DNA from: Escherichia coli
GTDB lineage: Bacteria > Pseudomonadota > Gammaproteobacteria > Enterobacterales > Enterobacteriaceae
Length of the DNA: 64,000 nt
Strand: one strand, 5' to 3'
Assembly (NCBI RefSeq): GCF_003991155.1
Contig: NZ_CP031294.1
Shown: in pieces, positions 2,278 through 59,069 of the stretch
Numbering within the stretch: the first letter of the stretch is position 1
Layout: each line of letters opens with the position of its first letter
The notes under the pieces: generated by a model
Told to the model about the DNA's origin: nothing
The model's database searches: none
The model's input: the letters and a program-made list of their open reading frames with translations, nothing else
Translations under genes and position numbers: made by a program

Positions 2278-2312
2278 TGGAGAGTTCCCTTTGCGTATAT
2301 AATTATCGTCTG

Positions 2313-2343
2313 AAACAACTTGTTTTCTTATATGTGATATAGC
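2313..2343 (-). promoter_or_regulatory. E-type promoter/leader module (copy upstream of parA)
   Basis: The plus strand reads AAACAACTTGTTTTCTTATATGTGATATAGCC. It has the palindrome AAACAA-c-TTGTTT plus a downstream ATATC(-10-like) element on the gene strand. Confidence 0.5.
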
Positions 2344-31870: not shown

Positions 31871-31913
31871 AAACAACTTGTTTACTGCATCTGCTAACCA
31901 ACTTGTTTTCTGG
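31871..31913 (-). promoter_or_regulatory. E-type module, two half-degenerate copies upstream of terS
   Basis: AAACAACTTGTTT at 31871-31883 and CAACTTGTTTTCTGG at about 31898-31913. Confidence 0.4.
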
Positions 31914-37617: not shown

Positions 37618-38142
37618 ATGACAACCAAAGATATTACCTACGGTATCCAAGCTGAACTCTGGCCGCGAGATTACACTAACGTTGAAAAACTACTGATGTT
37701 CTGGCGCAGAGAACAAATTCCTGTAAGGGTCACTCTCGAAGATGGCCAGGCGTTTTGCATGTACGTTTATGGCCTCATGCCATCTCGTAACAAAGTTGAC
37801 CTTTGCCCAGCCCCTTTTGACAAAGAAAATCGTATAAGGCTCCCACTTGAACGCATTAGTACAATTGAATCAGGTGTGGTTGACAGTATCGCTCACGATT
37901 TCAAAGGTCGACTAACAGTTCACCCTGATTATGTCGATAATCGGCCATCACGCCGCGATTTTTTTGCAATTTGCAACCAAGCCTACAAAGCAAACAAATC
38001 TATAAGGGTGTACATGGCGGATGGCCGTGAAATTGAGGGGGTGTCAGCAGGCGCAGATGCTTGTCAGGTTACACTACGTGTCGAGAACGGTAGAAAAATA
38101 GTTGTTTTGTTCGATTGGGTTGAACGAATTTTGCCTTTTTGA
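37618..38142 (+). CDS. hypothetical protein with two Rof-like/Sm-like repeats (tentative)
   Basis: Start set to ATG 37618, 4 nt after the upstream stop. Two segments fit the pattern (I/V)xVxxxDGxxxxGxxxxxxxxxxVxLxxxxxxxxxxLxxIxxI. The Rof assignment comes from memory and is weak. Confidence 0.4.
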   Translation: MTTKDITYGIQAELWPRDYTNVEKLLMFWRREQIPVRVTLEDGQAFCMYVYGLMPSRNKVDLCPAPFDKENRIRLPLERISTIESGVVDSIAHDFKGRLTVHPDYVDNRPSRRDFFAICNQAYKANKSIRVYMADGREIEGVSAGADACQVTLRVENGRKIVVLFDWVERILPF

Positions 38143-38496: not shown

Positions 38497-38645
38497 CACA
38501 TCACTTCTTTATATCTACAAATCAAATAACCTAAATATATATAAGGTCTAAAGCCGCAATCAATTATTTATTTAGGGAACACCTTCGACGATCTCGCTTT
38601 TATTTCTAGGACTTTCATCCCTGCAAAAAATTTAAAAAAAAACAC

Positions 38646-38673
38646 TTGCAATCTTTTTTCGCATATCGATAAT
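38646..38673 (+). promoter_or_regulatory. sigma70-like promoter of the AT-rich three-gene cassette
   Basis: TTGCAA-N16-GATAAT, about 65 nt upstream of ATG 38739. Confidence 0.5.
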
Positions 38674-38738
38674 TGAACTCGTCGAAAGCGAAGACGCTAA
38701 CGACAATAAATTTTAAATTTACATAAGGAAAAATTATC

Positions 38739-39389
38739 ATGGCTAACATTATCATTTCTAAAAAATCCATCATTGAAGCTGCTTCCATTGTATCCGATGA
38801 ACTGCGCGAAAAAGCAGATCTGGCAACTCAAACATATAACGAACATTATAAAAATGGTACGCACACTAAAGCAGACAAAGCAAATATGCAAGCTGCGACC
38901 ACTAAACTTGCTTACTTCATCAACAACGTCGTAAACGCAGTAGAAGACGAAAAATTATGCTCTGTTTTCTACTATGCGATTAAAGCAAGCAAACAAGCGC
39001 CAGAAGTATTTTTCCGTGATGCAATGACTAATAGTTATTCTCTGGAAAAACTGGTTTATCTGGTTAAATCAATTAAATCTGGTAAATGCGTTTATTCCAT
39101 CGCTGATATGTCTGGATCTCGTGTATTCGCTTTAATCGATATGATTAACGACGAGATCGACACGTTCACTAATGGCGCTGTTTTCGATTTAATGAATGAA
39201 GCTAAAAAAGCGTGTGAAATTAAATTGGACGCTGGTTATACTCAAGCCAACCAGTTGATCAATCTTTGCGAACGTCTTGGACTTGTTGAAAAAGTCAAAG
39301 GAGCTGGGAGCGCGAAAGCTGGTACTCAGCAATATCGCTTCATTAAAAATGATTTCTACAATTATTTAGCTGATGCTTTCAAAGCGTAA
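38739..39389 (+). CDS. hypothetical protein (216 aa), possible C-terminal wHTH
   Basis: AT-rich gene with codon usage different from its neighbours. RBS AAGGAAAAA. Confidence 0.6.
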   Translation: MANIIISKKSIIEAASIVSDELREKADLATQTYNEHYKNGTHTKADKANMQAATTKLAYFINNVVNAVEDEKLCSVFYYAIKASKQAPEVFFRDAMTNSYSLEKLVYLVKSIKSGKCVYSIADMSGSRVFALIDMINDEIDTFTNGAVFDLMNEAKKACEIKLDAGYTQANQLINLCERLGLVEKVKGAGSAKAGTQQYRFIKNDFYNYLADAFKA

Positions 39390-40256: not shown

Positions 40257-40380
40257 CTACGAAAGAAATCTGGATGTCTCAGGCGACGAAAGTCATCATA
40301 ATTTTCCCCGCTCGCCTGTCCGACAACCGCTGGTTGGATTCCACCAGCTTCCCGATGTTTTTTTCTACATAAAGGCGAAT

Positions 40381-40500
40381 GCAGCCGTTTCCCGAAAAAA
40401 TCCTGGCCGTTTCCCGTCGGCTCATGAATACGTTCCTCGCCGTTTCTGAAAATTTCCCTGCGGCAGCTGGTGGCTATAGAGAAAGGGCCGTTTCTGGCCC
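40381..40500 (+). repeat. iteron-like array A (core GTTTCCC / CCGTTTC)
   Basis: aGCCGTTTCCCGaaaa, gGCCGTTTCCCGtcgg, aCGTTCCTCG, CCGTTTCTGaaaa, TTTCCCTGcgg and gGCCGTTTCTGG. The first copies are spaced 22 bp apart. Confidence 0.6.
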
Positions 40501-40509
40501 TCTTCTCAG

Positions 40510-40992
40510 TTACACGCCATCAAGGATGTGGATGCGGTTGCTTGCGTATACATTCAGCATAAAGTTAGCGCAAAACAGTTTCCATGTATCAACGCCAGCG
40601 GTATACGTAATGTTTTTGCATTTAATCGCATTGTTGGCGATCCGCATCCCCTGCGATACTGCTTCATCGTCGGAAAATTTGAACGACGATTGAGTTTTAA
40701 TCCAGACAGAAATCTGCGTAGCGAACTCAATCAGCTTGGACTGGCAGAATCGCCCGGAGCGCACCGGAAAGACGAACGTTCCGAATCCAGAATTTACCAC
40801 ATATGCTTTCTCAAATACCCGCGAGTAACGACGATTGCCAATGATGTCGCGTGCAATAATGCATTTTTCTTGTGCTGACAGTTCTACCGTCTCATTGTCG
40901 CGCCATGCACCAAGTACTCGTTTTTCAATGTCAGAGAACGTTACAGCGATATTGCCATGTGCGGGTGCGTTTACAGTAGCGATAAAATTCAT
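40510..40992 (-). CDS. hypothetical protein (160 aa)
   Basis: ORF preceded by an E-type module and RBS AAGGAA. Flanked by iteron arrays. Confidence 0.6.
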   Translation of the reverse strand: MNFIATVNAPAHGNIAVTFSDIEKRVLGAWRDNETVELSAQEKCIIARDIIGNRRYSRVFEKAYVVNSGFGTFVFPVRSGRFCQSKLIEFATQISVWIKTQSSFKFSDDEAVSQGMRIANNAIKCKNITYTAGVDTWKLFCANFMLNVYASNRIHILDGV

Positions 40993-41010
40993 GATTAATT
41001 CCTTATCGTA

Positions 41011-41046
41011 AATAACAAATTGTTTTCTTGTTGGTGTTAATTATCG
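41011..41046 (-). promoter_or_regulatory. E-type promoter/leader module
   Basis: The gene strand reads CGATAATTAACACCAACAAGAAAACAATTTGTTATT...AAGGAATTAATC-ATG. Confidence 0.55.
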
Positions 41047-41077
41047 TTGTACGAATAAGGCGTCAAAGTGGAAAGTT

Positions 41078-41160
41078 GCGGTAGCCGGACGGGAACAGGT
41101 GGGTTTGTCGGTTGCCTGGAGGTAAGAGGTTGGTGTTTTTAGCCTGCGGGAAACAGGATG
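41078..41160. repeat. about 70-nt module (copy A of a duplicated segment) with two inverted GTT(T)CCCG cores
   Basis: gCGGTAGCCggaCGGGAACAGGTGGGTttgTCGGTtGCCTGgaggtaAGAGGTTGGTgTTTTT aligns at about 75% by eye with 44712-44790. CGGGAACAGG and CGGGAAACAGG are reverse complements of the iteron core. Confidence 0.55.
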
Positions 41161-41167
41161 GTCATTT

Positions 41168-41191
41168 AAGGCCACCAGCATTGGTGGCCTT
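41168..41191 (-). terminator. 10-bp-stem hairpin containing a Chi octamer
   Basis: AAGGCCACCA-gcat-TGGTGGCCTT lies just downstream of the stop at 41197. It contains CCACCAGC. Confidence 0.55.
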
Positions 41192-41196
41192 AATCT

Positions 41197-41478
41197 TTAG
41201 TGGAGCAGACCGATGTCGATGGTATCCCCTGAATCATCCACACGGATCATCAGCATGGCAAAGGCGTTTAGTGGATAGCTTGCGTGCCATTCAGGGAAGC
41301 GGTCATCTCGCATGAAGTCGGCAATGTCGTAAACGCATCCCTCAAAGTGGAAGAATCGCGTGCTTACCTGCTCGTCATAATCCACATGATCCATTTCTTG
41401 CTGTTCTGTTTCCGGCAAGTCCAGCCATGATTCAAGAAATACATTTTGTGCTTTAGGGGTAATGGTGAAATCAGTCAT
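41197..41478 (-). CDS. hypothetical acidic protein (93 aa)
   Basis: Trimmed to ATG 41478 (GAGGA 8 nt upstream), because the E-type module lies inside the longer ORF-track call. Confidence 0.6.
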   Translation of the reverse strand: MTDFTITPKAQNVFLESWLDLPETEQQEMDHVDYDEQVSTRFFHFEGCVYDIADFMRDDRFPEWHASYPLNAFAMLMIRVDDSGDTIDIGLLH

Positions 41479-41497
41479 GAGCATATCCTCACTGCGT

Positions 41498-41530
41498 AAA
41501 CATGTTGTTTTCTTGTTGGTGTAATTATCG
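41498..41530 (-). promoter_or_regulatory. E-type promoter/leader module
   Basis: The gene strand reads cTGCGATAATTACACCAACAAGAAAACAACATGTTTAC (extended -10 TGcGATAAT). Confidence 0.55.
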
Positions 41531-41638
41531 CAGTGTAGATAAGGCATAAAAGAAGTTAATACAGGCTGAATACACAAGAAAGGTTCTGGAAGTTGATAGC
41601 CAGGTTTCAAACTAACCTTCGGTTATTAAAAGTCATTT

Positions 41639-41662
41639 AAGACCACCAATGCTGGTGGCCTT
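41639..41662 (-). terminator. hairpin, sequence-related to 41168-41191, containing a Chi octamer
   Basis: AAGACCACCA-atgc-TGGTGGCCTT. It contains GCTGGTGG. Confidence 0.5.
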
Positions 41663-41667
41663 AATAA

Positions 41668-41811
41668 TTATCGCCCGATTACGCTAAGGATCTTTTCCTC
41701 AACTGATTTGTTGTTGCGACTAAACTGCCTTGCGTATCTGATGACAGAAGAGGCGTTTTGCTTTCTGACCATCTCGGCTCTTTCCTTCAGGCGTTTCTTG
41801 AAATCGCCCAT
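41668..41811 (-). CDS. small basic ORF (47 aa), below the ORF-track cutoff
   Basis: MGDFKKRLKERAEMVRKQNASSVIRYARQFSRNNKSVEEKILSVIGR. The ATG lies 2 nt after the stop of 41814..42188, so the two are coupled. Confidence 0.35.
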   Translation of the reverse strand: MGDFKKRLKERAEMVRKQNASSVIRYARQFSRNNKSVEEKILSVIGR

Positions 41812-41813
41812 AT

Positions 41814-42188
41814 TTACCACCAGGCGCAGAAGGTCAGTCTGTTATTGTGAAAGTCGTGGTTCTTAATCAGATCTTCCACAAGCTCTTTCAACTCCCCCAC
41901 ATCATGCCAGTAACCTTCATCGTACTCCTGACTGCCGAAGAAAAAACCTTCCCGGGTAGGCAAGTACTCTTCGCAATTACTTTCGTTTATGTGCATCAAA
42001 TGAGCCTTCAGAAAACAAATGTCATTCATCGTTAATTCTAAAAGCTCACAATTTTCGACTTCACCTACGTTGCGCTCCATCCACCCAACGAGCGCATTGA
42101 ACTTACGGAAGTAAGCAACCTGCTTTCTGGATGCCTCGTTATTCAGATCGTTTTTAGGCTGTGTCTCGATATAGATATCAAGTCCCAT
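41814..42188 (-). CDS. hypothetical protein (124 aa)
   Basis: Trimmed to ATG 42188 (AAGGAAACC upstream): MGLDIYIETQPK... Confidence 0.55.
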   Translation of the reverse strand: MGLDIYIETQPKNDLNNEASRKQVAYFRKFNALVGWMERNVGEVENCELLELTMNDICFLKAHLMHINESNCEEYLPTREGFFFGSQEYDEGYWHDVGELKELVEDLIKNHDFHNNRLTFCAWW

Positions 42189-42244
42189 GATGGTTTCCTT
42201 ATTAAGTTGCTTCAGTGAAATCATTTTCACAAATCAGATAAGGC

Positions 42245-42261
42245 AGAAAACAAATTGTTAT
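42245..42261. promoter_or_regulatory. E-type palindrome core (opposite orientation)
   Basis: AGAAAACAAATTGTTAT on the plus strand. The flank AAGGCAGAAAAC resembles 46311-46335. Confidence 0.4.
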
Positions 42262-42305
42262 CGGGCATAAGAAAATGGCGCGGTTTACGCGCCATTCAAA
42301 GAGGA

Positions 42306-42701
42306 TTAAGCGAATACGCTTTCAGGGATTAAGGTGTCAGCAGGAATGCCGGAGGTAATGCGCAGGCCGTACTGACCAATCCAGGTAGTGTTGGTATTCA
42401 GGCTGGAGGCGAATACGGTGTTAACCATATTCATCATGGTTTCAAACACCTCTTCATCAACCTGGCGGAAGTAGTTCTCGATTTTCAGCAGCAGCGGGTC
42501 AGTTGCATCGAAAATAGACTGGTATTGAGTCGCGTACTCGCCGCCGGAGGCATCACCTTTACGCACGATCGTACTGGCCTGGACTTCGGCACCAGTTTCG
42601 GTGTTGTACGTAACAACGGTGATTTTTGCCACATTCTTACCTTCGGCGGTTTCAGAGGCATAGTAAACATCAACTGTCAGTTTTTCGCGTTTAACGGTCA
42701 T
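42306..42701 (-). CDS. hypothetical protein (131 aa), highly expressed look
   Basis: Trimmed to ATG 42701 (GGAGAGTGAA upstream). Preceded by an L-type dyad and an upstream terminator. Confidence 0.6.
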   Translation of the reverse strand: MTVKREKLTVDVYYASETAEGKNVAKITVVTYNTETGAEVQASTIVRKGDASGGEYATQYQSIFDATDPLLLKIENYFRQVDEEVFETMMNMVNTVFASSLNTNTTWIGQYGLRITSGIPADTLIPESVFA

Positions 42702-42744
42702 TTCACTCTCCGTAGTGTTTTGGTTATTTTTATATTCTATGATC

Positions 42745-42760
42745 GTAAGTATGTACTTAC
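42745..42760. promoter_or_regulatory. L-type dyad motif
   Basis: GTAAGTA-tg-TACTTAC. Confidence 0.45.
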
Positions 42761-42763
42761 AAT

Positions 42764-42793
42764 ACAAAAAAGCCCCGTAAGGATGGCGGGGCT
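42764..42793 (-). terminator. rho-independent terminator
   Basis: AGCCCCG-n9-CGGGGCT followed by TTTTTTG on the minus strand. Confidence 0.75.
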
Positions 42794-42827
42794 GTCGTAC
42801 TGTCGACTAATTACCACTTGCACATTA

Positions 42828-43139
42828 TCAGGCTATTGCCATCACTGATGCTCTCTGAATCTCTTGCTGGGCCACGCGGTTAACTTCCATCAAAGCCAGT
42901 TCGAGCTGATGTTCCGGCCACATTCTTTGAAATGCCACCCAGCCTTTTCCACGCTGGCGACGAACATTCATTACATAACGAGTAAAGGTGTATTTATCGA
43001 AAGACACCGCTGTTTCACGGAACAGACGAATAGAGGTTCCATTGGCAACGATGTCCAGCAAAGTTAATTGAGCAACCAGCGCAGGCTTCTCTTTTCTCTT
43101 CTGGTCTTTGTCCAGACCAAGAACCAATGATTTTTTCAT
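42828..43139 (-). CDS. hypothetical protein (103 aa)
   Basis: Trimmed to ATG 43139 (ACGGAG upstream): MKKSLVLGLDKDQKRKEKPALVAQL... Confidence 0.55.
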   Translation of the reverse strand: MKKSLVLGLDKDQKRKEKPALVAQLTLLDIVANGTSIRLFRETAVSFDKYTFTRYVMNVRRQRGKGWVAFQRMWPEHQLELALMEVNRVAQQEIQRASVMAIA

Positions 43140-43150
43140 CACAACTCCGT

Positions 43151-43185
43151 AAACAACTTGTTTTCTCAATGGCGTAAATAATACC
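43151..43185 (-). promoter_or_regulatory. E-type promoter/leader module
   Basis: The gene strand reads GGTATTATTTACGCCATTGAGAAAACAAGTTGTTTACGGAG. Confidence 0.55.
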
Positions 43186-43292
43186 AGTAAGAAAACGGCT
43201 ACAAAGCATATTGATCAGGTGCATGAGCGATATGCAGGTTCTTCCCTGCGGCTATAGAGAAATTAAGCCAGCATTGCTGGCTTTGGTTAGGT

Positions 43293-43622
43293 TTACTCGA
43301 ATACTTCAAGAAACTCCTGAACGTCCCAATGCTGGACAAGGTGAAGATAGACCTTAGAAATAACATCATTCTCGCTATCGCATGTGAAGTAGTACTTCTG
43401 GCTGCGGTTGTATGTGTCCACACAAAATTCGCTCATATCCATAAAGTCAGCATCTTCACCCATGTCGCAAATCATCAAAGCAGGTGCGTCATCACGAGTC
43501 ATCAGCTCAAGCACCCACCGCGAATTGATCAGAGTGGAAGACCAACCTTCTAACTCATAAAACTGATCAAACTCTTTTTGAGTTAATTTCTTGATTTGGT
43601 TGATGTCGATATTTGCAAACAT
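43293..43622 (-). CDS. hypothetical acidic protein (109 aa)
   Basis: Trimmed to ATG 43622 (AAGGA 7 nt upstream): MFANIDINQIKKL... Confidence 0.55.
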   Translation of the reverse strand: MFANIDINQIKKLTQKEFDQFYELEGWSSTLINSRWVLELMTRDDAPALMICDMGEDADFMDMSEFCVDTYNRSQKYYFTCDSENDVISKVYLHLVQHWDVQEFLEVFE

Positions 43623-43634
43623 AAAGCAATCCTT

Positions 43635-43667
43635 AAACAACATGTTTTCTTGATGGTGTTATTATCG
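43635..43667 (-). promoter_or_regulatory. E-type promoter/leader module
   Basis: The gene strand reads TGCGATAATAACACCATCAAGAAAACATGTTGTTTAAGGA. Confidence 0.55.
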
Positions 43668-43985
43668 CAATAACGCACAGGTGAAAAAGGATTTTATTCC
43701 GGTGAATGTGGTTTTGGCAGTGAGTTTTCAGGTTCAGTACCGAGTACACTTTTTACATTATTCTGATTTAGTGGCCGAAGGTGGCTGGTGGGCAGAATAA
43801 TCCTCTCCCCGAAAACCTACTGAAATCGATTGTGACCCGTTGGCTGTCTGGCACAATTACGCTGTAACTGGGCATTCAGAGGGAATCCAGCGGTAAGTAA
43901 GTTCGCCTGCACGTGAGCGCCTCTCTTCTTCCCGCACATTACAGGTGGGTAGCCGCAACTCTCCCTCTCGCTATACCGGTACGCC

Positions 43986-44121
43986 GCCGTTCCTGAACCG
44001 GCATCGAGCCTTCTCCCGAAATCCACACAGGCAACTCGACCGTTTCCCTGAAAACCTCCAGCCGTTCCCCGAAGGCAACCCAGCCGTTTCTGTAGCGGGA
44101 TGCAACCTTTTCCCTGTATGG
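43986..44121 (+). repeat. iteron-like array B: six direct repeats at about 22-bp phasing
   Basis: GCCGTTCCTGAAcc, gCCTTCTCCCGAAAtcc, gaCCGTTTCCCTGAAAAcc, aGCCGTTCCCCGAAgg, aGCCGTTTCTGtagc and aaCCTTTTCCCTGtat. Starts at 43986, 44008, 44039, 44061, 44083 and 44105. Confidence 0.7.
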
Positions 44122-44175
44122 ACCGAAGGCTGACCGTAGGGGTGTTACGGGGGATAAAATCAGGAGTTGAATAAA

Positions 44176-44203
44176 TACGAAAAAGGAGGCGACACCCCTC
44201 CTT
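44176..44203 (-). terminator. rho-independent terminator ending the non-coding unit
   Basis: Minus strand: AAGGAGG-ggtgtcg-CCTCCTT followed by TTTCGTATTT. Confidence 0.7.
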
Positions 44204-45035
44204 CTCTCCCCACTTATACATACCTGGCTTCTTCGCTATACATGTTGTGTTTTATTCGTGTTTTATCTGTCTCAACCTCTCTATGGACGTTAATACTCAC
44301 TCCTTCCAGAACGTTCTATACGGCGACTAATTCTGTTGGTGAATTGGGTGTGTTGTTCTCTCTGTCGGTGTATGTGGTTTCGTTCGTTTTGCGGTGGTTC
44401 TTCTATGGGGTGTTCTCGTCGTTTTGGTGATTGTTCTTCTCCGTGTATGGAGTAATGGCAGGTGGGCGATTCCTTTCGTTATTGTGTTTGAGTTGTTTGT
44501 CTGGAGTGCGTGAAGGGCTTTTGTAGTTATTCGTGTGTTGGGTAATGGCGTTTCCCGTGATTGTTCTGTTTCGTGTCTTTTGGGATTGAGAGAAACCTTG
44601 CGGTTACAGGCTTCGTTGGGGTTTCAGTGATTCTGGTGTTTCTTCGCTGTTTGGGTAATGGCGTGTCGTGGGTATCGCGCGTATGGAAGTTTCGAATTGC
44701 CTGTGAAAGTTAGGTTGGTTGTCCGGTAGCCTGAGAAGAAGAGGTGGGTCTTTTCGGTAGCCTGCCATAAAGAGGTTGGTTGTTTTTGGTAATGGCATAT
44801 GTGTTATTTAGTTGTTTTGTTATGCCTGAAAATAAGTTGTTTATATGGTTATGTAACGCAACGGGAACGATTTTGAGCGTGTGTTTTTGTTGGTAGTGTG
44901 TTGGGTCGTCTGTGGTGAAAATTGGACGCTGTGGCGCTGTCTGCTGCGTAGAATTACGGGTATAAGCAGTGATGTGTGAAAACGTCAATTTTTTAGACCA
45001 AATCGGGTGAAAGCGTTGATGTTTCGTTGATCTGT
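44204..45035 (-). ncRNA. candidate about 830-850-nt A/C-rich non-coding transcript
   Basis: Bounded by an E-type module variant (45041-45069) and a terminator (44176-44203). The plus strand is about 70% G+T by eye, so the RNA would be A/C-rich and G-poor. No ORF has an SD. Internal degenerate repeats are present. Confidence 0.4.
44452..44796. repeat. dispersed GGTAATGGC repeats within degenerate 90-130-nt units, plus copy B of the 70-nt module
   Basis: G(G/A)GTAATGGC at 44452, 44541, 44654 and 44788. GTGATT(G/C)T.. recurs three times. 44549-44557 carries a GTTTCCCG core. 44712-44790 aligns with 41078-41150. Confidence 0.6.
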
Positions 45036-45040
45036 TATTC

Positions 45041-45069
45041 AGTTGTTTTCTTATTGGTATAAACAACTG
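45041..45069 (-). promoter_or_regulatory. E-type module variant with a split palindrome
   Basis: CAGTTGTTT-tcttattggtat-AAACAACTG (9-bp perfect inverted repeat). It shares TTGTTTTCTTATTGG with 59088-59119. No CDS follows. Confidence 0.4.
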
Positions 45070-45176
45070 TAACCTATTGATATTTAAGGATGTGATTCCA
45101 GGCATGGAAGGGGAGTAGTGGCGATCAACGGATTCTTATAGAAAAGAATCAAATTGTGACCGCCATTATCAATGTT

Positions 45177-45911
45177 TTACTTAGTTTTGTTTAGCAGAGA
45201 GAGAATTTCATCACTAATTTCACTCGCCTGTTTGATAGCCAATGCAGTTACCTCTTCTATGGTTGGTGACTGTTGATGCTCATATTTGGTTTCGGTTATG
45301 ACAATGTGTTCTTCACCAGAATTTGCGCATAGTGCCGCATTGACGATAAGGTTTGAGTAAGAATTTAGCAGAGCACTGTTGATGAACGCTTTCACGGTAT
45401 TACTGTCTGCACCAAATACATCTTTTCTGACCGCTTCAGCCTCACAGCGAACCCCTGCAGCAACATCGTGAAGAACATGTATGGCCTTGGAGCTTGTTTG
45501 TTCACAGTACTCAATCATTATTGTCGAATTGTTCTGTTCAACAAACGATCTGATGCCTGACGATTTACCCATAGCATCGAAGGCAGCGTGACCCGCACTA
45601 GTAGAGATATCTTCATAGAGTTCTTCATCGCTATCTTTTTCTTCAGGTGTCGAGGTGTCTTCATCGTCGTAATAGATATTGCCTTTAATCAGTGTCTTGG
45701 ACACTTGATATAAACAATAAGAAACGAGATTTAAGCATTGGATTTTAGCTGTATTGTCCTTTGTCGCCTCGCTATTCAGTTCTTTCGCTTCTTCAGTAAG
45801 GCTGTTGATAAGACTTTGTATTTTTTCCAACGCGTTAGGTGCACACTCCGCGTTGTCCATAAAGAATTTATAACCAGTCCCAGGGATTTCTAAACTTTTC
45901 AACTTTTTCAT
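45177..45911 (-). CDS. hypothetical protein (244 aa), lower GC
   Basis: Long ORF with a degenerate E-like sequence upstream (45926-45952). No motif recognised. Confidence 0.6.
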   Translation of the reverse strand: MKKLKSLEIPGTGYKFFMDNAECAPNALEKIQSLINSLTEEAKELNSEATKDNTAKIQCLNLVSYCLYQVSKTLIKGNIYYDDEDTSTPEEKDSDEELYEDISTSAGHAAFDAMGKSSGIRSFVEQNNSTIMIEYCEQTSSKAIHVLHDVAAGVRCEAEAVRKDVFGADSNTVKAFINSALLNSYSNLIVNAALCANSGEEHIVITETKYEHQQSPTIEEVTALAIKQASEISDEILSLLNKTK

Positions 45912-45956
45912 TTCTTTGATAATCCTAAAAACAAACTACCAATGCTTTAATATCTG

Positions 45957-46256
45957 TTACCAGTTCCAGCACTCAAGCCCTTCAACGACCGGCGCACCAC
46001 AATCAAAATGTACAGAGTCAAAGCCTACATCAAGTACTTTCTGAATGTTAGCAATCGCGCCTTCGGATATACCATATCGACGCAAGTCCTCTTTCCAGAC
46101 ATCATCCTGTAACCCAGCGTGGACAATACAACCGCCGTCAATTTGTGAAACCCAATCCAGCTCATTGCTTGCGATCATGAATCGGCGAGCATCTTCCTCT
46201 GATGTATGAGATGAGCTGATCAATGCCACCTGGTAGGCTTGGGTAATGTTCAACAT
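45957..46256 (-). CDS. hypothetical protein (99 aa)
   Basis: ORF with RBS CGGAG and an E-type module upstream. Ends ...PVVEGLECWNW. Confidence 0.55.
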   Translation of the reverse strand: MLNITQAYQVALISSSHTSEEDARRFMIASNELDWVSQIDGGCIVHAGLQDDVWKEDLRRYGISEGAIANIQKVLDVGFDSVHFDCGAPVVEGLECWNW

Positions 46257-46270
46257 TTCAACAACTCCGA

Positions 46271-46304
46271 AACAATTTGTTTTCTTATGTGGCTTATTAT
46301 CTCA
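46271..46304 (-). promoter_or_regulatory. E-type promoter/leader module
   Basis: The gene strand reads TGAGATAATAAGCCACATAAGAAAACAAATTGTTTCGGAG. Confidence 0.55.
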
Positions 46305-46318
46305 ATCAACAAAAGGTA

Positions 46319-46335
46319 GAAAACAAATTGTTTTA
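46319..46335. promoter_or_regulatory. E-type palindrome core (opposite orientation); last phage-type motif before metG
   Basis: AGAAAACAAATTGTTTT on the plus strand. Confidence 0.4.
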
Positions 46336-46417: not shown

Positions 46418-48451
46418 TTACTTAACCTGGTGGCCTGGTTTAGCACCAGCATCCGGGCTTAACAGGAAGATATCTTTCCCGCCGGGGCCAGCAGCCATCA
46501 CCATGCCTTCGGAGATACCGAAGCGCATTTTACGCGGAGCCAGGTTAGCCACCATAATGGTGTGACGACCAATCAGTGCCTGTGGGTCTGGATAAGCAGA
46601 ACGGATGCCTGAGAAGACATTACGCTTTTCACCACCGAGATCCAGTGTCAGACGCAGCAGTTTGTCAGAACCTTCGACAAACTCCGCGTTTTCAATCAGC
46701 GCCACACGCAGGTCAACTTTGGCGAAGTCGTCAAAGGTGATGGTTTCCTGAATCGGGTCGTCAGCCAGTGGGCCAGTTACCGGTGCAGCTGTGGCTTTCA
46801 CTTCTTCTTTGGATGCTTCCACCAGTGCTTCCACCTGTTTCATATCGATACGGTTATACAATGCCTTGAACGGATTCACTTTATGGCCCAGCAGCGGTTG
46901 CTGGATACCATCCCAGGTCAGTTCTGTATTCAGGAATGCTTCTGCACGTTCAGTCAGTTTCGGCAGTACCGGTTTCAAGTACGTCATCAGCACGCGGAAC
47001 AGGTTAATGCCCATAGAGCAAATCGCCTGCAGATCGGCATCGCGTCCTTCCTGCTTCGCCACCACCCACGGAGCCTGTTCATCGACATATCGGTTAGCCA
47101 GGTCAGCCAATGCCATGATTTCACGGATAGCTTTACCAAATTCGCGGCTTTCCCATGCTTCGCCAATCACTTCAGCGGCATCAGTAAAGGTTTTGTACAG
47201 TTGCGGGTCAGCCAGTTCGCTTGCCAGCACGCCGTCAAAACGCTTGTTGATAAAGCCTGCATTACGGGAGGCCAGGTTAACCACTTTGTTCACGATATCG
47301 GCATTCACGCGCTGAACGAAATCCTCCAGGTTGAGATCGATATCATCAATGCGCGAAGAGAGTTTCGCAGTGTAGTAGTAACGCAGGCTGTCGGCGTCAA
47401 AATGATTCAGCCAGGTGCTGGCTTTAATAAAGGTGCCGCGAGACTTGGACATCTTCGCGCCGTTCACCGTCACATAGCCGTGAACAAACAGGTTGGTCGG
47501 CTTGCGGAAGTTGCTGCCTTCCAGCATGGCAGGCCAGAACAGGCTGTGGAAGTAAACAATATCTTTACCGATGAAGTGGTACAGCTCGGCTGTGGAGTCT
47601 TTCTTCCAGTATTCATCGAAGCTGGTGGTATCGCCGCGCTTGTCGCACAGATTCTTGAAGGAACCCATGTAGCCAATCGGCGCGTCCAGCCAGACGTAGA
47701 AATATTTGCCCGGCGCGTTCGGAATTTCAAAACCGAAGTAAGGCGCATCGCGGGAGATATCCCACTGTTGCAGGCCGGATTCAAACCACTCCTGCATTTT
47801 GTTCGCCACCTGCTCCTGCAACGCACCGCTGCGGGTCCATGCCTGCAACATTTCGCTGAAAGAGGGCAGATCAAAGAAGAAGTGTTCGGAATCACGCATT
47901 ACCGGGGTAGCGCCAGAAACCACCGATTTCGGCTCGATCAATTCAGTCGGGCTATATGTTGCGCCGCAGACTTCACAGTTATCGCCGTATTGATCTGGCG
48001 CTTTACATTTCGGGCAGGTGCCTTTCACAAAACGATCCGGCAGGAACATGCCTTTTTCCGGGTCGTACAACTGAGAGATAGTGCGGTTTTTAATAAAACC
48101 GTTCTCTTTCAGGCGAGTATAGATAAGCTCAGACAGCTGGCGGTTCTCTTCGCTGTGCGTCGAGTGATAGTTGTCATAGCTGATGTTAAAGCCTGCGAAA
48201 TCAGTCTGGTGTTCCTGACTCATTTCGCCAATCATCTGCTCCGGTGTGATACCAAGCTGCTGTGCTTTCAGCATGATCGGCGTACCGTGGGCATCGTCGG
48301 CACAGATGAAATTAACCTCGTGGCCGCGCATTCGCTGGTAACGAACCCAGACATCAGCCTGGATGTGCTCCAGCATATGGCCGAGGTGGATTGAGCCGTT
48401 AGCGTACGGCAGCGCGCACGTCACCAGAATTTTCTTCGCGACTTGGGTCAT
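46418..48451 (-). CDS. metG: methionyl-tRNA synthetase
   Basis: 677 aa from [29 protein letters not shown]. Has KMSKS and the C-terminal tRNA-binding domain. Near-identical to E. coli/Salmonella MetRS from memory. The ORF-track start at 48580 is an upstream in-frame extension. Confidence 0.97.
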
Positions 48452-48608
48452 AGTAGGCATTACTTCTTTGTAGTGAAAAGGGGCTTGATAGTAACAAAAT
48501 GGCCTTATGTCTGCCATGTGATAACAGCATTTCTCATAAATGATTAAATGTCGTAGCTGGAGTACACTACAAGGCGACAATTGCGCAAATTAAAATAAAG
48601 GAGACGGG

Positions 48609-49709
48609 ATGAGCGAGTCCAAATCGCCGGATGCCCTGAGAGCAATGGTAGCCGGTACGCTGGCTAATTTTCAGCACCCAACCCTGAAACACAACCTGAC
48701 TACGCTTAAAGCGTTACACCATGTTGCGTTGATGGATGACACACTGCATGTCGAACTAATCATGCCTTTCGTGTGGAATAAGCCTTTTGAAGACCTGAAA
48801 GAGCAATGTAGTGGTGATCTGCTCCGTATCACTGGCGCAAAGGCTATTGACTGGAAGCTGTCGTACAACATTGCCACGCTTAAGCGCGTCAAAAACCAAC
48901 CAGGCATTAATGGCGTTAAGAACATTATCGCCGTCAGCTCAGGCAAGGGCGGCGTGGGTAAATCCTCCACGGCGGTAAACCTGGCACTGGCGTTGGCTGC
49001 TGAAGGTGCGAAAGTTGGTATTTTGGATGCCGATATCTATGGTCCATCAATTCCAACCATGCTGGGCGCGGAAAACCAACGTCCAACCTCACCTGACGGT
49101 ACTCACATGGCACCTATCATGTCTCATGGCCTGGCAACCAACTCTATTGGTTATCTGGTCACCGACGACAATGCAATGGTGTGGCGTGGACCGATGGCCA
49201 GCAAGGCGCTGATGCAGATGTTGCAGGAAACTCTATGGCCTGATCTGGACTATCTCGTTCTCGATATGCCGCCGGGCACTGGTGATATTCAGTTGACGCT
49301 GGCGCAGAACATTCCTGTAACTGGTGCGGTTGTGGTAACTACGCCGCAAGACATCGCGCTGATCGATGCGAAGAAAGGCATTGTGATGTTCGAAAAAGTC
49401 GAAGTGCCGGTACTGGGTATCGTCGAAAACATGAGTGTGCATATTTGCAGTAACTGCGGTCATCACGAGCCAATTTTTGGCACCGGTGGCGCACAGAAAC
49501 TGGCCGAGAAATACAACACGCAGTTGTTAGGCCAAATGCCACTTCATATCTCTCTTCGTGAAGATCTGGATAACGGAACACCAACCGTTATTAGTCGTCC
49601 AGATAGCGAATTTACGGCTATTTATCGTGACCTCGCAGATCGCGTTGCCGCCCAAATGTATTGGCAAGGTGAAGTAATACCTGGCGAAATCGCATTCCGC
49701 GCAGTGTGA
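48609..49709 (+). CDS. apbC: Fe-S cluster carrier ATPase Mrp/ApbC
   Basis: 366 aa. P-loop SSGKGGVGKS and the CSNCGHH motif. Divergent from metG, as in enterobacterial chromosomes. Confidence 0.95.
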   Translation: MSESKSPDALRAMVAGTLANFQHPTLKHNLTTLKALHHVALMDDTLHVELIMPFVWNKPFEDLKEQCSGDLLRITGAKAIDWKLSYNIATLKRVKNQPGINGVKNIIAVSSGKGGVGKSSTAVNLALALAAEGAKVGILDADIYGPSIPTMLGAENQRPTSPDGTHMAPIMSHGLATNSIGYLVTDDNAMVWRGPMASKALMQMLQETLWPDLDYLVLDMPPGTGDIQLTLAQNIPVTGAVVVTTPQDIALIDAKKGIVMFEKVEVPVLGIVENMSVHICSNCGHHEPIFGTGGAQKLAEKYNTQLLGQMPLHISLREDLDNGTPTVISRPDSEFTAIYRDLADRVAAQMYWQGEVIPGEIAFRAV

Positions 49710-50837: not shown

Positions 50838-52396
50838 ATGAAAATGACAAGTATTCAACAACGTGCAGAGCTTCATCGCCAGATCTGGCAAATTGCTAAC
50901 GATGTCAGGGGTTCAGTCGATGGATGGGATTTTAAGCAGTACGTTTTGGGCGCGCTTTTTTACCGTTTTATCAGCGAAAATTTTTCCAGTTATATTGAAG
51001 CCGGTGATGACAGTATCTGTTATGCGAAACTGGATGACAGCGTAATTACTGATGACATTAAAGACGATGCCATCAAAACTAAAGGCTACTTCATCTACCC
51101 CAGTCAGCTTTTCTGCAACGTAGCTGCGAAAGCAAATACTAATGACAGACTGAATGCAGATTTAAACAGCATCTTCGTTGCTATCGAAAGTTCTGCTTAC
51201 GGTTATCCTTCAGAAGCTGACATCAAAGGTTTGTTTGCTGATTTCGATACCACCAGTAACCGCCTGGGTAACACCGTTAAAGATAAAAATGCCCGCTTGG
51301 CTGCGGTTCTGAAAGGGGTTGAAGGGCTAAAACTTGGTGACTTCCATGAACATCAGATTGACCTGTTCGGTGACGCCTATGAGTTCCTGATTTCTAACTA
51401 TGCGGCGAATGCCGGTAAGTCCGGCGGCGAGTTCTTTACACCGCAGCACGTCTCTAAGCTGATTGCACAACTGGCTATGCACGGGCAGACCCACGTTAAC
51501 AAAATCTACGACCCGGCAGCAGGCTCCGGTTCGCTGTTGTTGCAGGCGAAAAAACAGTTTGATGACCATATCATCGAAGAAGGTTTTTTTGGTCAGGAAA
51601 TCAACCATACGACCTATAACCTGGCGCGTATGAACATGTTTTTGCACAACATCAACTACGACAAGTTTGATATCAAGCTGGGTAATACACTGACTGAGCC
51701 GCACTTCAGAGATGAAAAACCGTTTGATGCCATCGTTTCTAACCCGCCGTATTCGGTGAAATGGATTGGCAGCGATGACCCGACGCTGATTAACGATGAA
51801 CGTTTTGCCCCGGCTGGCGTTCTGGCCCCCAAATCCAAAGCTGACTTTGCGTTTGTATTACATGCGCTGAACTATCTTTCGGCCAAAGGTCGCGCTGCGA
51901 TTGTCTGCTTCCCAGGCATTTTTTACCGTGGCGGCGCGGAGCAGAAAATCCGTCAGTATCTGGTCGACAATAACTATGTCGAAACCGTGATTTCACTGGC
52001 ACCGAATCTGTTCTTTGGCACCACTATTGCCGTCAATATTCTGGTGCTGTCTAAACATAAAACGGATACCAAAGTTCAGTTTATTGATGCCAGCGAACTG
52101 TTCAAAAAAGAGACTAACAACAACATTCTGACCGATGCTCATATCGAACAGATTATGCAGGTATTTGCCAGCAAGGAAGATGTTGCTCATCTGGCGAAAT
52201 CTGTTGCGTTTGAGACTGTTGTCGCGAATGACTATAACCTGTCGGTGAGCAGCTATGTGGAAGCGAAAGATACTCGCGAAATTATCGATATCGCTGAGCT
52301 GAATGCTGAGCTGAAAACCACGGTCAGCAAAATCGACCAGTTGCGTAAAGATATTGATGCGATTGTTGCTGAGATTGAAGGTAGCGAGGTACAGGC

Positions 52397-52400
<4 letters not shown>
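50838..52400 (+). CDS. hsdM: type I R-M methyltransferase subunit, type IC (EcoR124 family)
   Basis: 520 aa. [25 protein letters not shown]..., SAM motif DPAAGSGS, catalytic NPPYS. Essentially EcoR124I HsdM from memory. Confidence 0.95.
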
Positions 52401-53656
<1,256 letters not shown>

Positions 53657-53777
53657 TTGACCATTGCTACCGACCGGATCACCTTAACATCCGGTCTATA
53701 TAGAGACTATTTTTTACACGCCGGAAGTCGCCCTTAAAGCCCTTCCGGCCCTTGCCAGACGGCACAAAGGATGCGCT

Positions 53778-56700: not shown

Positions 56701-56894
56701 ATGAAGAGGCGGCGAAACGCTATATTCGCACGTCTTTAAAACGCGAATACGCCACCGAAAATGGCACAGAATTAAACGAGACATTACCAAAACTTAGTCC
56801 GTTAAACCCGCAATATAAAACGAAAAAACAGACCGTTTTCCAGAAAATCGTCACGTTTATTGAAAAGTTCAAAGGAGTAGGTGGGCAGATATAG
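53778..56894 (+). CDS. hsdR: type IC restriction/translocase subunit
   Basis: 1038 aa. Motor motifs TTGSGKT and FDECHRS. Has its own promoter region after a 121-bp gap, as in EcoR124. Confidence 0.95.
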
Positions 56895-58499: not shown

Positions 58500-59069
58500 T
58501 CAATTAGAGCTTTGAAAGACTTTGTGTGGTTGTGTTGCGAGGTTATGTCGATGGCTTAACTCACGCATCATGTCTTCAAGGCGACTCTTTGTGTCGTCGA
58601 GTTGGTCGGCCATTGCTCCCAAAAGCTGACGAACGGCCATAGGATCATCGCTGTTTAGTGATGGCATTTTATAACCCGCCTGAGAAGACATAAGATTGAA
58701 CGCAGACATCAACATCGTTAGAGAGGATTTAAGCCCAGCAATTTCACGATCTTTGCTGGCAATAATCGTCTCACTCTTGTTAGTGTCATCAGTTCGTTGA
58801 GTCTCGCTCACCATATCCAAAGTCGCCTGCAACTTATCAGCGCGCTCTTTTTCAGCAAGATAATGAACACCGAAATGATGTGCTAAAGCTACAACCTGAG
58901 TTGGCTCTTCAAAGGTGGACTCAAAATTAAGTGCTGTAACCACTCTCTCAAATATGGAAACGTCTTCTATTCCTCGAAGAATGGCTAACATTTTGACCAG
59001 TTCATTAGCATCCATTTCTTCGAATAAGGCGTTTTGTTCATCAGCTATCGCTTTGCATTTCTTGCACAT
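58500..59069 (-). CDS. hypothetical protein (189 aa)
   Basis: ORF with an E-type module upstream. Helical/coiled. Confidence 0.55.
   Translation of the reverse strand: MCKKCKAIADEQNALFEEMDANELVKMLAILRGIEDVSIFERVVTALNFESTFEEPTQVVALAHHFGVHYLAEKERADKLQATLDMVSETQRTDDTNKSETIIASKDREIAGLKSSLTMLMSAFNLMSSQAGYKMPSLNSDDPMAVRQLLGAMADQLDDTKSRLEDMMRELSHRHNLATQPHKVFQSSN

What the first reader, a model, noticed from the sequence alone, without database searches (positions are those of the whole stretch)
40510..46256. Array of mostly monocistronic small-gene cassettes with uniform expression signals (candidate anti-defence/early set)
Nine small genes of 47-244 aa, several of them strongly acidic, lie head-to-tail on the minus strand. 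Seven of the eight transcription units have their own E-type (or, for 42306, L-type) module, and the eighth (45177..45911) has only a degenerate copy. Three units end in their own hairpin; two of these hairpins (41168 and 41639) are sequence-related and embed Chi octamers.

None of the proteins has a motif I recognise. The ORF track over-extends five of them across their own promoters, and I trimmed those starts.

This organisation (many short, individually promoted, unrelated ORFs next to a replication/repeat region) resembles the early or leading regions of phages and plasmids, where anti-restriction, anti-CRISPR and other counter-defence genes accumulate.
Basis: inference. Interest (0 to 1): 0.5.

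Follow-up and report, generated by a model that had tools for sequence, protein, structure and literature searches.

The report
Repressible small-gene cassette array, phage-plasmid
A 6-kb stretch of an SSU5-type phage-plasmid of E. coli carries nine small genes of unknown function, most built as self-contained promoter-operator-gene-terminator cassettes that are silent in the resting plasmid and are swapped in and out between relatives, which makes it a reasonable but unproven place to look for counter-defence genes.

Summary
The window is part of a ~110-kb SSU5/pHCM2-type phage-plasmid (100% identical to E. coli plasmids, 98% to phage Cyrano/pLF82). Nine minus-strand genes lie at the stated coordinates.

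Six units carry one conserved module: a -10 GATAAT, ~11 nt, then a 15-17-bp palindrome (G)AAAACAAnTTGTTTT(C), then the ribosome-binding site. One unit (D) carries a different palindrome shared with head and tail genes. One (G) has only a remnant. At least six units end in hairpins.

The palindrome marks about 14 promoters across the element, including DnaB helicase and a ParA-like gene. It is conserved in Salmonella SSU5 and Klebsiella relatives.

Cassettes come and go between relatives, with breakpoints inside the repeated hairpins and modules. This resembles the PeSL cassettes of T4-type phages.

Published RNA-seq of the Cyrano lysogen shows the palindrome-bearing genes at background. G and the 47-aa gene are expressed.

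No product matches a known function, fold or anti-defence family. H is DUF5983, with a confident fold that has no solved relative.

The early/accessory reading is supported. The anti-defence reading is untested. A conserved 1.5-kb non-coding element splits the array and remains unexplained.

The parts
40510..40992 (-). gene A, 160 aa, basic (pI 9.2), function unknown; present in all 11 relatives compared, including Y. pestis pMT1
   Evidence: PHROG 1641 'unknown'; only 19 cluster representatives among 1.84 billion proteins
40478..40502 (-). hairpin GGGCC-N6-GGCCC plus U-rich tail after gene A
41013..41045 (-). E-type module of A: -10 GATAAT (41040-41045), 12 nt, palindrome GAAAACAATTTGTTA (41013-41027), 20 nt before the ATG
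   Evidence: (families D1, D4)
41166..41193 (-). 12-bp-stem hairpin after B, contains Chi (minus orientation); left joint of the 471-bp B cassette
   Evidence: (D8, I1)
41197..41478 (-). gene B, 93 aa, very acidic (net -15); found only in SSU5-type elements; absent from 5 of 11 relatives
   Evidence: AlphaFold2 model poor (pLDDT 64)
41498..41529 (-). E-type module of B (GATAAT 41524-41529; palindrome 41498-41512)
41637..41664 (-). hairpin after Cs, 96% complementary to 41166-41193, Chi in plus orientation; right joint of the B cassette
41668..41811 (-). gene Cs, 47 aa, basic; expressed about 6x background in the Cyrano lysogen
41814..42188 (-). gene C, 124 aa, acidic, unknown
42223..42265 (-). 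module of C: operator in reverse orientation at the -35 position (42248-42262) plus -10-like GAAAAT (42223-42228); no downstream operator
   Evidence: (D5)
42273..42297 (-). terminator hairpin after D (AUGGCGCG-N5-CGCGCCAU plus U tract)
42306..42701 (-). gene D, 131 aa; most divergent of the core genes (36-55% identity in Klebsiella and SSU5)
42734..42760 (-). L-type module of D: perfect palindrome GTAAGTACATACTTAC (42745-42760), 5 nt, then -10 TAGAAT (42734-42739); same motif precedes head, tail, thyA and parB units; conserved before D homologues in all relatives
42766..42792 (-). canonical intrinsic terminator after E (GCCCCG-N9-CGGGGC-UUUUUU)
42828..43139 (-). gene E, 103 aa, basic (pI 10.3), unknown
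43151..43183 (-). E-type module of E (-10 TATTAT 43178-43183; palindrome 43151-43165)
43265..43283 (-). hairpin after F, related to the two Chi hairpins but without Chi
   Evidence: (D9)
43293..43622 (-). gene F, 109 aa, very acidic (net -14); seen only in the E. coli-lineage elements among those compared
43635..43666 (-). E-type module of F (GATAAT 43661-43666; palindrome 43635-43649); insertion point of an extra 71-aa cassette in three relatives
43696..45176 (.). conserved non-coding element. It has a G-rich part with 4 GAAACGG repeats about 22 bp apart (43990-44100), a hairpin at 44180-44206, and an 880-nt part that is A+C-rich and G-poor on the minus strand (44250-45130), with 4 GCCATTACCCA repeats and degenerate E-boxes at 44829 and 45042. 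Function unknown.
45177..45911 (-). gene G, 244 aa, acidic; only a half-palindrome upstream; expressed about 6x background in the lysogen. Its slot is variable: G, a 396-aa gene, a 132-aa gene plus DUF1380, or empty.
45957..46256 (-). gene H, 99 aa, DUF5983 (Pfam 42.7 bits, cut-off 27); confident alpha/beta model (pLDDT 94) with no solved relative
46270..46335 (-). two-operator module of H: downstream operator 46270-46284, GATAAT 46296-46301, upstream operator 46321-46335 (centres 51 bp apart, forming a 30-nt inverted repeat around the -10)
   Evidence: (I2)

Best explanation
This is the accessory ('hyperplastic') early arm of an SSU5/pHCM2-type phage-plasmid.

Most genes are autonomous expression cassettes. 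Each has a sigma-70-type -10 (GATAAT) and a 15-17-bp palindromic operator placed at about +5 to +21. In some units there is a second, inverted copy over the -35 position. A Shine-Dalgarno sequence, one small ORF and a hairpin follow.

A dimeric element-encoded regulator, not yet identified, sits on the palindrome and keeps the units shut while the element lives as a plasmid. With no regulator in a newly infected cell, or after induction, the units fire together with the other palindrome-bearing units (DnaB helicase and others).

The repeated modules and hairpins also serve as homology for recombination. Cassettes are therefore gained, lost and replaced between relatives.

D is a late-class gene embedded in the array. 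G and Cs escape repression and behave as lysogeny-expressed morons.

What the products do is not shown. My best guess is host-takeover or counter-defence functions for B, C, F and H (about one chance in three).

Shown: anatomy, conservation, polymorphism, silence in a lysogen. Inferred: promoter activity, repression through the palindrome, timing, product function.
For: - Identity of the element.
- Module enrichment: 28 against 3.95 expected; composite pattern 4 against 0 expected, all in the array.
- Site placement: 17 palindromes with at most 2 mismatches in the ~110-kb element. Sixteen are intergenic although only 13% of the DNA is non-coding, and 15 lie about 18-72 nt before a minus-strand start codon (coordinates checked).
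- Conservation: modules sit at homologous positions in SSU5 and a Klebsiella phage, where surrounding DNA is only 67-80% identical.
- Hairpins follow the units.
- Breakpoints: the B cassette lies between the two hairpin repeats; the extra cassette and the G-slot replacements end at modules or gene borders.
- Expression (PMC9928086, S1 table, Cyrano, LB overnight, median 9.8): H 7.5, F 12.8, E 12.2, C 5.7, B 6.7, A 25.5, against G 57 and Cs 58.
- Timing: E-type units rise earlier than L-type units.
Against: - No transcription start sites, and no binding data for any regulator.
- -35 elements are weak, and the generic promoter scan did not call the modules.
- The ParA-like operon carries the palindrome yet is expressed in the lysogen (CYRAN_28). 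The palindrome alone therefore does not guarantee silence.
- L-type and plain-promoter units are silent in the lysogen too, so lysogenic silence does not single out the palindrome.
- The RNA-seq comes from a 98%-identical relative, and for genes outside the array the module positions were carried over by homology.
- The timing statistic is weak (n = 13 against 12, one-sided p = 0.027).
- No functional evidence exists for any product.
Confidence: 0.6

Rival explanations
1. Dedicated anti-defence island: most products inhibit host restriction, CRISPR, abortive-infection or similar systems right after entry or induction.
For: - Small, often very acidic ORFans.
- Individually promoted, silent in lysogeny.
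- High turnover of B, F, the 71-aa cassette and the G slot.
- Alternative cassettes include DUF1380 (annotation) and DUF5983 (H). From memory, these families occur in plasmid leading regions and CP4-type islands.
- The SSU5 group has very few recognised anti-defence genes, so unrecognised ones are expected somewhere.
Against: - No hit to any anti-defence family, fold or solved structure.
- A, D, E and H are conserved core genes rather than fast-turnover cargo.
- D is late-class, and G and Cs are expressed in lysogeny.
- No dedicated anti-defence HMM library was available here.
Confidence: 0.3
2. The palindrome is the target of the FljA-family protein encoded 2.4 kb away (37618-38142), acting on the mRNA leader as FljA does on fliC mRNA. 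The cassettes would then be silenced post-transcriptionally.
For: - The neighbour is a full-length FljA homologue (Pfam PF03614, 1.5e-84).
- Among 50,697 phage records, nearly all full-length homologues are in recognisably SSU5-like genomes.
- It is kept in Klebsiella elements. Klebsiella hosts have no flagellin (from memory), which suggests a target inside the element.
- It is transcribed in lysogens (CYRAN_114).
- The downstream operators lie inside the predicted leader, just before the SD.
- The Salmonella/Citrobacter flagellin leader has CAAGTTGT just before its SD, followed by GATAAGGAA...ATCATG as in the module of gene A.
Against: - Copies at the -35 position (C, H and others) cannot be in the mRNA, and they form DNA-level inverted repeats around the -10.
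- The RNA hairpin would be very weak.
- The match to fliC is an 8-mer found after the fact.
- From memory, the E. coli fliC leader, also repressed by FljA-type proteins, has a different spacing.
- The FljA binding site could not be read in the literature held.
Confidence: 0.1
3. Lysogenic-conversion or defence cluster: the genes act for the host or plasmid during carriage (superinfection exclusion, fitness factors).
For: G and Cs are about 6x above background in the lysogen and are listed as morons in PMC9928086. The G slot is the most variable position and lies next to captured host genes metG-apbC.
Against: The other seven genes are at background in the lysogen. There are no significant PADLOC hits.
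Confidence: 0.1
4. Replication- or maintenance-linked region: the non-coding element with GAAACGG iteron-like repeats is an origin or copy-control locus, and some flanking small proteins (for example basic A, which has the same repeats just downstream) bind it.
For: - The non-coding 1.5 kb is conserved while the cassettes vary.
- Four GAAACGG repeats are spaced about 22 bp apart in each of two clusters, one directly after A.
- A and its downstream repeats are retained even in Y. pestis pMT1.
- There is extreme strand asymmetry.
Against: repA lies about 40 kb away, and no similar repeat cluster is found near repA. No DNA-binding domain is detected in A or E. There is no experimental origin mapping.
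Confidence: 0.08

Closest known systems
PeSL (promoter-early stem-loop) regulatory cassettes in the hyperplastic regions of T4-type phages (Arbiol et al. 2010, PMC2839356; PMC4122927)
   Same: Repeated composite motifs made of a sigma-70-like early promoter and a stem-loop flank small non-essential ORFans. Differences between close relatives are insertions, deletions and replacements with end points in the repeats.
   Different: The host element is a temperate siphovirus-type phage-plasmid, not a lytic myovirus. The joint also contains a palindromic operator, so the cassettes are switchable and silent in lysogeny. There is no sequence similarity to PeSLs. Mini-circle formation was not examined.
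Dispersed immunity regulon of phage-plasmid P1 (C1 repressor with many operators across the genome; Lpa-dependent late promoters with an inverted repeat near -22) (from memory)
   Same: One operator type is scattered over a ~100-kb phage-plasmid in front of many separate units, including replication genes. A second palindrome class sits just upstream of a -10 at structural-gene promoters, as for the L-type module of D.
   Different: From memory, P1 C1 operators are asymmetric 17-mers, whereas here the site is a true palindrome. There is no sequence relation, and the regulator here is unidentified.
Anti-defence islands: plasmid leading regions, phage early regions (T7 0.3/Ocr, T5 pre-early, acr-aca loci)
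   Same: Clusters of short, often acidic, unrelated ORFs with early expression and high turnover.
   Different: No recognised anti-defence gene or marker (ArdA, KlcA, Ocr, Aca, PsiB/SSB, ssDNA promoters) is present, so the resemblance is architectural only.
Integron gene-cassette arrays
   Same: Head-to-tail single-gene units with repeated junction sequences and presence/absence polymorphism.
   Different: The repeats are promoters, operators and terminators rather than attC sites. Every unit has its own promoter. The only tyrosine recombinase of the element is about 55 kb away.

Membership tests
PeSL-type mobile regulatory cassettes | Repeated sigma-70-like early promoter in front of each small ORF | tested here: inconclusive
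   A conserved -10 GATAAT at fixed distance from the ORF occurs in 4 units exactly and in variants in the others. -35 elements are weak and not called by the generic scan. No start-site data.
PeSL-type mobile regulatory cassettes | Stem-loop terminator paired with the promoter | tested here: met
   Hairpins follow A, B, Cs, D, E and F, four of them with U tracts. In SSU5 the hairpin abuts the operator directly.
PeSL-type mobile regulatory cassettes | Indels between close relatives end inside the repeats | tested here: met
   The B cassette is bounded by the 39-nt hairpin repeats 41161-41199 and 41632-41670. The 71-aa cassette is inserted at module 43634-43650.
PeSL-type mobile regulatory cassettes | Excised cassette mini-circles | not testable with these tools
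   Needs PCR or deep sequencing across the joints.
Anti-defence island | Contains at least one recognised anti-defence gene | tested here: not met
   Pfam, NCBIfam, PHROGs and PDB sequences gave nothing. A published DefenseFinder screen of the SSU5 group found only Rad; Rad is a 189-aa Toprim protein with no counterpart in the array. No dedicated anti-defence library was available here.
Anti-defence island | Products inhibit a defence system | not testable with these tools
   Needs expression against defence-system panels.
Anti-defence island | Expressed first on entry or induction | tested here: inconclusive
   Silent in the lysogen. Weak earlier rise than L-type units. No infection time course exists.
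Repressor-operator regulon (P1 or lambda style) | One operator sequence overlapping many promoters of the element | tested here: met
   Seventeen sites with at most 2 mismatches; 15 lie directly upstream of start codons. Conserved in SSU5 and Klebsiella relatives.
Repressor-operator regulon (P1 or lambda style) | Identified repressor that binds the operator | not testable with these tools
   Candidates are the CI-like HTH protein (weak HTH_19 hit), the FljA-family protein and the ParB-like pair.
DUF5983 (gene H only) | Pfam PF19419 above the gathering score | tested here: met
   42.7 bits against a cut-off of 27. 109 profile hits, most annotated PF19419. The fold matches DUF5983 proteins of Erwinia and Colwellia phages.
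Integron cassette array | attC recombination sites and an adjacent IntI integrase with Pc promoter | tested here: not met
   The junction repeats are promoter, operator and terminator motifs. No integrase is adjacent.

The most novel reading that the evidence does not exclude
The palindromic box is the recognition element of the FljA-family protein encoded beside the array. FljA-type regulators would then be, in origin, phage-plasmid master regulators that silence about 14 units of the element through their leaders (RNA) and promoter regions. The Salmonella phase-variation repressor FljA and the fliC leader box would be a domesticated copy of that circuit. The array would be the largest block of this regulon.
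Probability: 0.1. Interest if true: 0.75.

Novelty: new member of a known kind. Interest (0 to 1): 0.4.

Why it matters
SSU5/pHCM2-type phage-plasmids are common in E. coli, Shigella, Salmonella Typhi, Klebsiella and Yersinia pestis (pMT1). Current tools find almost no counter-defence genes in them.

This analysis gives three concrete things:
- A map of one conserved promoter-operator module that defines a regulon of about 14 units. I found no description of it in the literature held.
- A short list of individually switchable ORFan cassettes, both variable (B, F, the 71-aa gene, the G slot) and core (A, C, E, H), that can be tested directly against defence-system panels.
- The junction sequences that explain how the cassettes are exchanged.

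If the products prove to be counter-defence or host-takeover factors, the module itself becomes a search handle for more of them in this family.

Tried and rejected
- Family searches of all nine products: Pfam, NCBIfam, PADLOC and PDB sequences gave nothing significant, and all PHROGs were 'unknown'. The weak PDB hits for E and F (antibody, multicystatin) had no stretch passing on its own and were dismissed.
- Deep homology for A gave only 19 representatives, all close or fragmentary. B is confined to SSU5-type elements and mis-named 'ABC transporter' in sources.
- The AlphaFold2 model of B was poor (pLDDT 64), so no fold search was made with it.
- I tested whether the 189-aa gene with an E-box (58500-59069) is the 189-aa anti-retron protein Rad. 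It has no Toprim domain and falls in an unknown PHROG, so the idea was rejected.
- Non-coding element: no Rfam family, no excess RNA folding on either strand (z +1.4 and +1.5), no tandem repeats. The two ORFs that Cyrano annotates there keep about 40% amino-acid identity at about 68% DNA identity. They lie in G/T-poor sequence where stop codons are rare, so I treat them as non-coding.
- Chi orientation bias around the array: none was apparent.
- The FljA binding site could not be read in the primary papers, which are not held.
- Integron and attC reading: rejected on anatomy.

Full report
ORIGIN OF THE WINDOW. The 5.7-kb finding is 100% identical to three ~110.7-kb E. coli plasmids (for example pEC17CM6_2, NZ_CP190020.1) and 98.3% identical to phage Cyrano (pLF82). 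Weaker matches occur in 728 plasmid records of Klebsiella, Enterobacter, Yersinia, Salmonella and others, and in Salmonella phage SSU5. Annotation of the matching record shows a phage-plasmid. It has head, tail and terminase genes (window 2.4-32 kb), ParB-like genes, a helicase, the array, then metG-apbC, an S24 peptidase, a type I R-M system and further small genes. repA, dnaE, primase, DnaB and nrdAB lie outside the window. The array therefore belongs to an SSU5/pHCM2-type phage-plasmid, not to a chromosome.

THE GENES. All nine ORFs exist on the minus strand at the stated coordinates. B, C, D, F, G and H are acidic (pI 4.1-4.7; net charge -7 to -17). A, Cs and E are basic.

THE E-TYPE MODULE. 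The pattern GAAAACAANNTGTTT with up to two mismatches gives 28 matches in the window against 3.95 expected; none of 100 shuffles reached 28. Read on the minus strand, the modules of A, B, E, F and H align as follows (17 families D1/D2/D4, 115):
- a -10 hexamer (GATAAT; TATTAT for E);
- 11-12 nt;
- AAGAAAACAAnTTGTTTA;
- a Shine-Dalgarno sequence, then the ATG 10-25 nt further on.

The strict composite GATAAT-N9-14-AGAAAACA occurs four times in 64 kb, all in the array, with none expected. With a start about 7 nt after the -10, the palindrome would cover about +5 to +21. H has a second, inverted copy whose centre lies 51 bp upstream, over the -35 position, so the whole promoter is a 30-nt inverted repeat (I2). 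C has only that upstream copy, followed by a GAAAAT -10.

THE E-BOX ACROSS THE ELEMENT. I rebuilt an approximate whole element from the window plus the two flanking stretches of pEC17CM6_2. In it, 17 palindromes have at most two mismatches. Sixteen are intergenic although only 13% of the DNA is non-coding. Fifteen lie roughly 18-72 nt before the start of a minus-strand gene (the window differs from that record by small indels, so distances beyond about 50 kb were corrected). Besides the array, they precede a DUF7238 gene, CobT, DnaB helicase, a ParA-like ATPase, the probable small terminase (two copies), a 189-aa ORF and a TerB-like gene.

THE L-TYPE MODULE. D is preceded by a perfect 16-bp palindrome, GTAAGTACATACTTAC, then 5 nt, then TAGAAT. 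The motif class gives 17 matches in the window against 1.7 expected. It precedes tail, head, holin, thyA, parB and SbcD-like units. The motif is kept in front of D homologues in Cyrano, PhiR41_1, a Klebsiella phage and SSU5. D therefore belongs to another promoter class, one shared with structural genes.

HAIRPINS AND CHI. Folding the 70 nt after each stop codon shows hairpins after A, B, Cs, D, E, F and G. Those after A, D, E and F have U-rich tails, and E's is a textbook intrinsic terminator. The hairpins after B and Cs are 28 nt long and 96% complementary. Each holds one Chi octamer, in opposite orientations because the 4-nt loop is inverted. Related hairpins in SSU5 have no Chi, so I attach no clear meaning to it.

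CONSERVATION AND CASSETTE TURNOVER. I compared ten related elements with the window, eleven in all.
- The E-modules sit at homologous positions in SSU5 and the Klebsiella phage and are nearly identical, although surrounding DNA is only 67-80% identical.
- Gene content varies: A 11/11; D, E and H 10/11; C 9/11; F and Cs 8/11; B 6/11; an extra 71-aa gene 5/11; a 396-aa gene 4/11; G 3/11; DUF1380 2/11; a 132-aa gene 1/11.
- Breakpoints are precise. B is a 471-bp unit lying between the two hairpin repeats, and elements without B keep a single hairpin. The 71-aa gene is inserted at F's module and brings a second module. G is cleanly deleted (45178 joined to 45957) or replaced.

However, A, C, D, E and H behave as core genes of the group.

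EXPRESSION. The Cyrano paper (PMC9928086) provides RNA-seq of the LF82 lysogen. In LB overnight culture the median over Cyrano genes is 9.8 normalised reads. The array genes give H 7.5, F 12.8, E 12.2, D 17, C 5.7, B 6.7 and A 25.5, against G 57 and Cs 58. The authors list G and Cs among the 'morons'. The unit with only a remnant palindrome (G) is thus expressed, and the units with intact ones are not. There are exceptions and limits. The ParA-like operon has the palindrome and is expressed. Cs is ten-fold above the upstream gene C. L-type units are silent too. Inside macrophages (1 h and 6 h), all rise a few-fold. E-type first genes change by +0.32 log2 between 1 h and 6 h, L-type ones by +1.04 (one-sided Mann-Whitney p = 0.027, n = 13 and 12). 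D behaves like the L class. This is weak support for 'E before L'.

PRODUCT FUNCTION.
- Pfam, NCBIfam, PADLOC and PDB sequence searches gave nothing significant except DUF5983 for H, and every PHROG hit is 'unknown function'.
- B exists only in SSU5-type elements. A has 19 relatives among 1.84 billion cluster representatives.
- B's model was poor.
- A published DefenseFinder survey of SSU5-group elements found only the anti-retron Rad, in 16-22% of Escherichia and Shigella elements and in none of the Salmonella ones. Rad is a 189-aa Toprim protein, and nothing like it is in the array.

The anti-defence reading is therefore neither supported nor excluded. The products match no housekeeping phage function either.

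WHO BINDS THE PALINDROME. There are three candidates:
- the CI-like protein that the Cyrano authors call the putative repressor (weak HTH_19 hit);
- the ParB-like pair;
- a full-length FljA-family protein encoded at 37618-38142 (PF03614, 1.5e-84).

The FljA-family protein is intriguing. Among 50,697 phage records, nearly all full-length homologues are in recognisably SSU5-like genomes, including Klebsiella phages. Klebsiella hosts lack flagellin (from memory). [quoted passage not shown] The Salmonella/Citrobacter flagellin leader reads ...AACATCAAGTTGTAATTGATAAGGAAAAGATCATG, which shares CAAGTTGT and its position before the SD with the E-box. Against this, the copies at -35 cannot be in the transcript, and they form DNA inverted repeats around the -10. 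The RNA hairpin is also weak, and the match is short. I keep this as the novel case at about 10%.

THE NON-CODING ELEMENT. The stretch 43696-45176 is conserved in every relative, including SSU5, while the genes around it vary.
- Its minus strand between 44250 and 45130 is 39% A, 30% C, 14% G and 18% T, with four GCCATTACCCA repeats.
- The G-rich part has four GAAACGG repeats about 22 bp apart. The same repeat recurs four times just downstream of gene A.
- There is no Rfam match, no excess RNA structure and no transcript signal in the lysogen.
- An E-box inside it is well conserved in SSU5 and Klebsiella.

It may be an origin, a copy-control locus or a leader. I could not decide.

COMPARISON WITH WHAT IS KNOWN, AND VERDICT. 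The closest described organisation is the PeSL system of T4-type phages, in which promoter-plus-stem-loop repeats flank ORFans in hyperplastic regions and mediate their shuffling (PMC2839356). Three of its four defining features are met or partly met here. The difference is a temperate host element and an operator built into the joint. The regulon logic resembles P1's dispersed C1 operators (from memory). I found no description of the SSU5 operator in the literature held.

My verdict:
- a real, well-defined accessory early arm;
- a new member of a known kind;
- interesting mainly as a test list for counter-defence screening and for its undescribed regulon;
- interest 0.4.

Noticed in passing
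window 3652, 5292, 9504, 16423, 22928, 28419, 35217, 42745, 60712, 62927: A second dispersed palindrome, GTAAGTAnnTACTTAC, lies 5 nt upstream of a -10. It precedes tail, head, holin, parB, thyA and SbcD-like units (17 matches against 1.7 expected). It is probably the binding site of a late or middle activator. A shorter relative, GGTAAGCACTTACC, lies just before the putative repressor gene outside the window.
   Followed up: partly
window 43696-45176: A conserved 1.5-kb non-coding element with extreme A+C/G+T strand asymmetry, GCCATTACCCA repeats and GAAACGG iteron-like repeats. It has no Rfam hit, no RNA-structure excess and no transcript in the lysogen.
   Followed up: partly
window 40330-40510: Four GAAACGG repeats and two opposed Chi octamers (40341, 40466) lie directly downstream of gene A. 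This stretch together with genes A and B is retained in Yersinia pestis pMT1.
   Followed up: partly
window 37618-38142 (+): A full-length FljA-family ('repressor of phase-1 flagellin') gene with a weak Hfq-like C-terminal hit. It is present in every SSU5-like relative examined, including Klebsiella elements; Klebsiella hosts lack flagellin (from memory).
   Followed up: partly
window 46418-49709: A full-length methionyl-tRNA synthetase gene and a divergent apbC/mrp gene lie side by side on the phage-plasmid, in the same arrangement as on the E. coli chromosome (from memory). The metG-apbC pair lies beside the array in Cyrano and pEC17CM6_2 (only the start of an mrp-like gene was seen in PhiR41_1), and it is absent from the homologous 14-kb stretch of SSU5.
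   Followed up: no
window about 50850-56894: A type I restriction-modification operon (hsdM, hsdS, hsdR) occupies a slot that in Cyrano holds Ea22/Eaa-like genes. This looks like a variable defence slot next to the accessory arm.
   Followed up: no
window 31871-31910: Two E-boxes 25 bp apart, followed by a GC-rich hairpin and a U-rich tail, lie just upstream of the probable small-terminase gene. This suggests repression plus termination/antitermination control of the packaging operon.
   Followed up: no
window 1612-2327: The ParA-like ATPase operon has an E-box (2313-2327) yet is well expressed in the Cyrano lysogen (CYRAN_28). A second GATAAT lies downstream of the palindrome.
   Followed up: partly
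window 41668-41811: In the published lysogen RNA-seq, the 47-aa gene Cs is ten-fold higher than gene C immediately upstream, without a recognisable module between them. An internal promoter or an antisense or unstranded artefact is possible.
   Followed up: no
window 38630-38740 (+): A near-consensus sigma-70 promoter (CTTGCA, 17 nt, GATAAT) without any palindrome precedes the plus-strand gene 38739-39389, which converges on the array.
   Followed up: no
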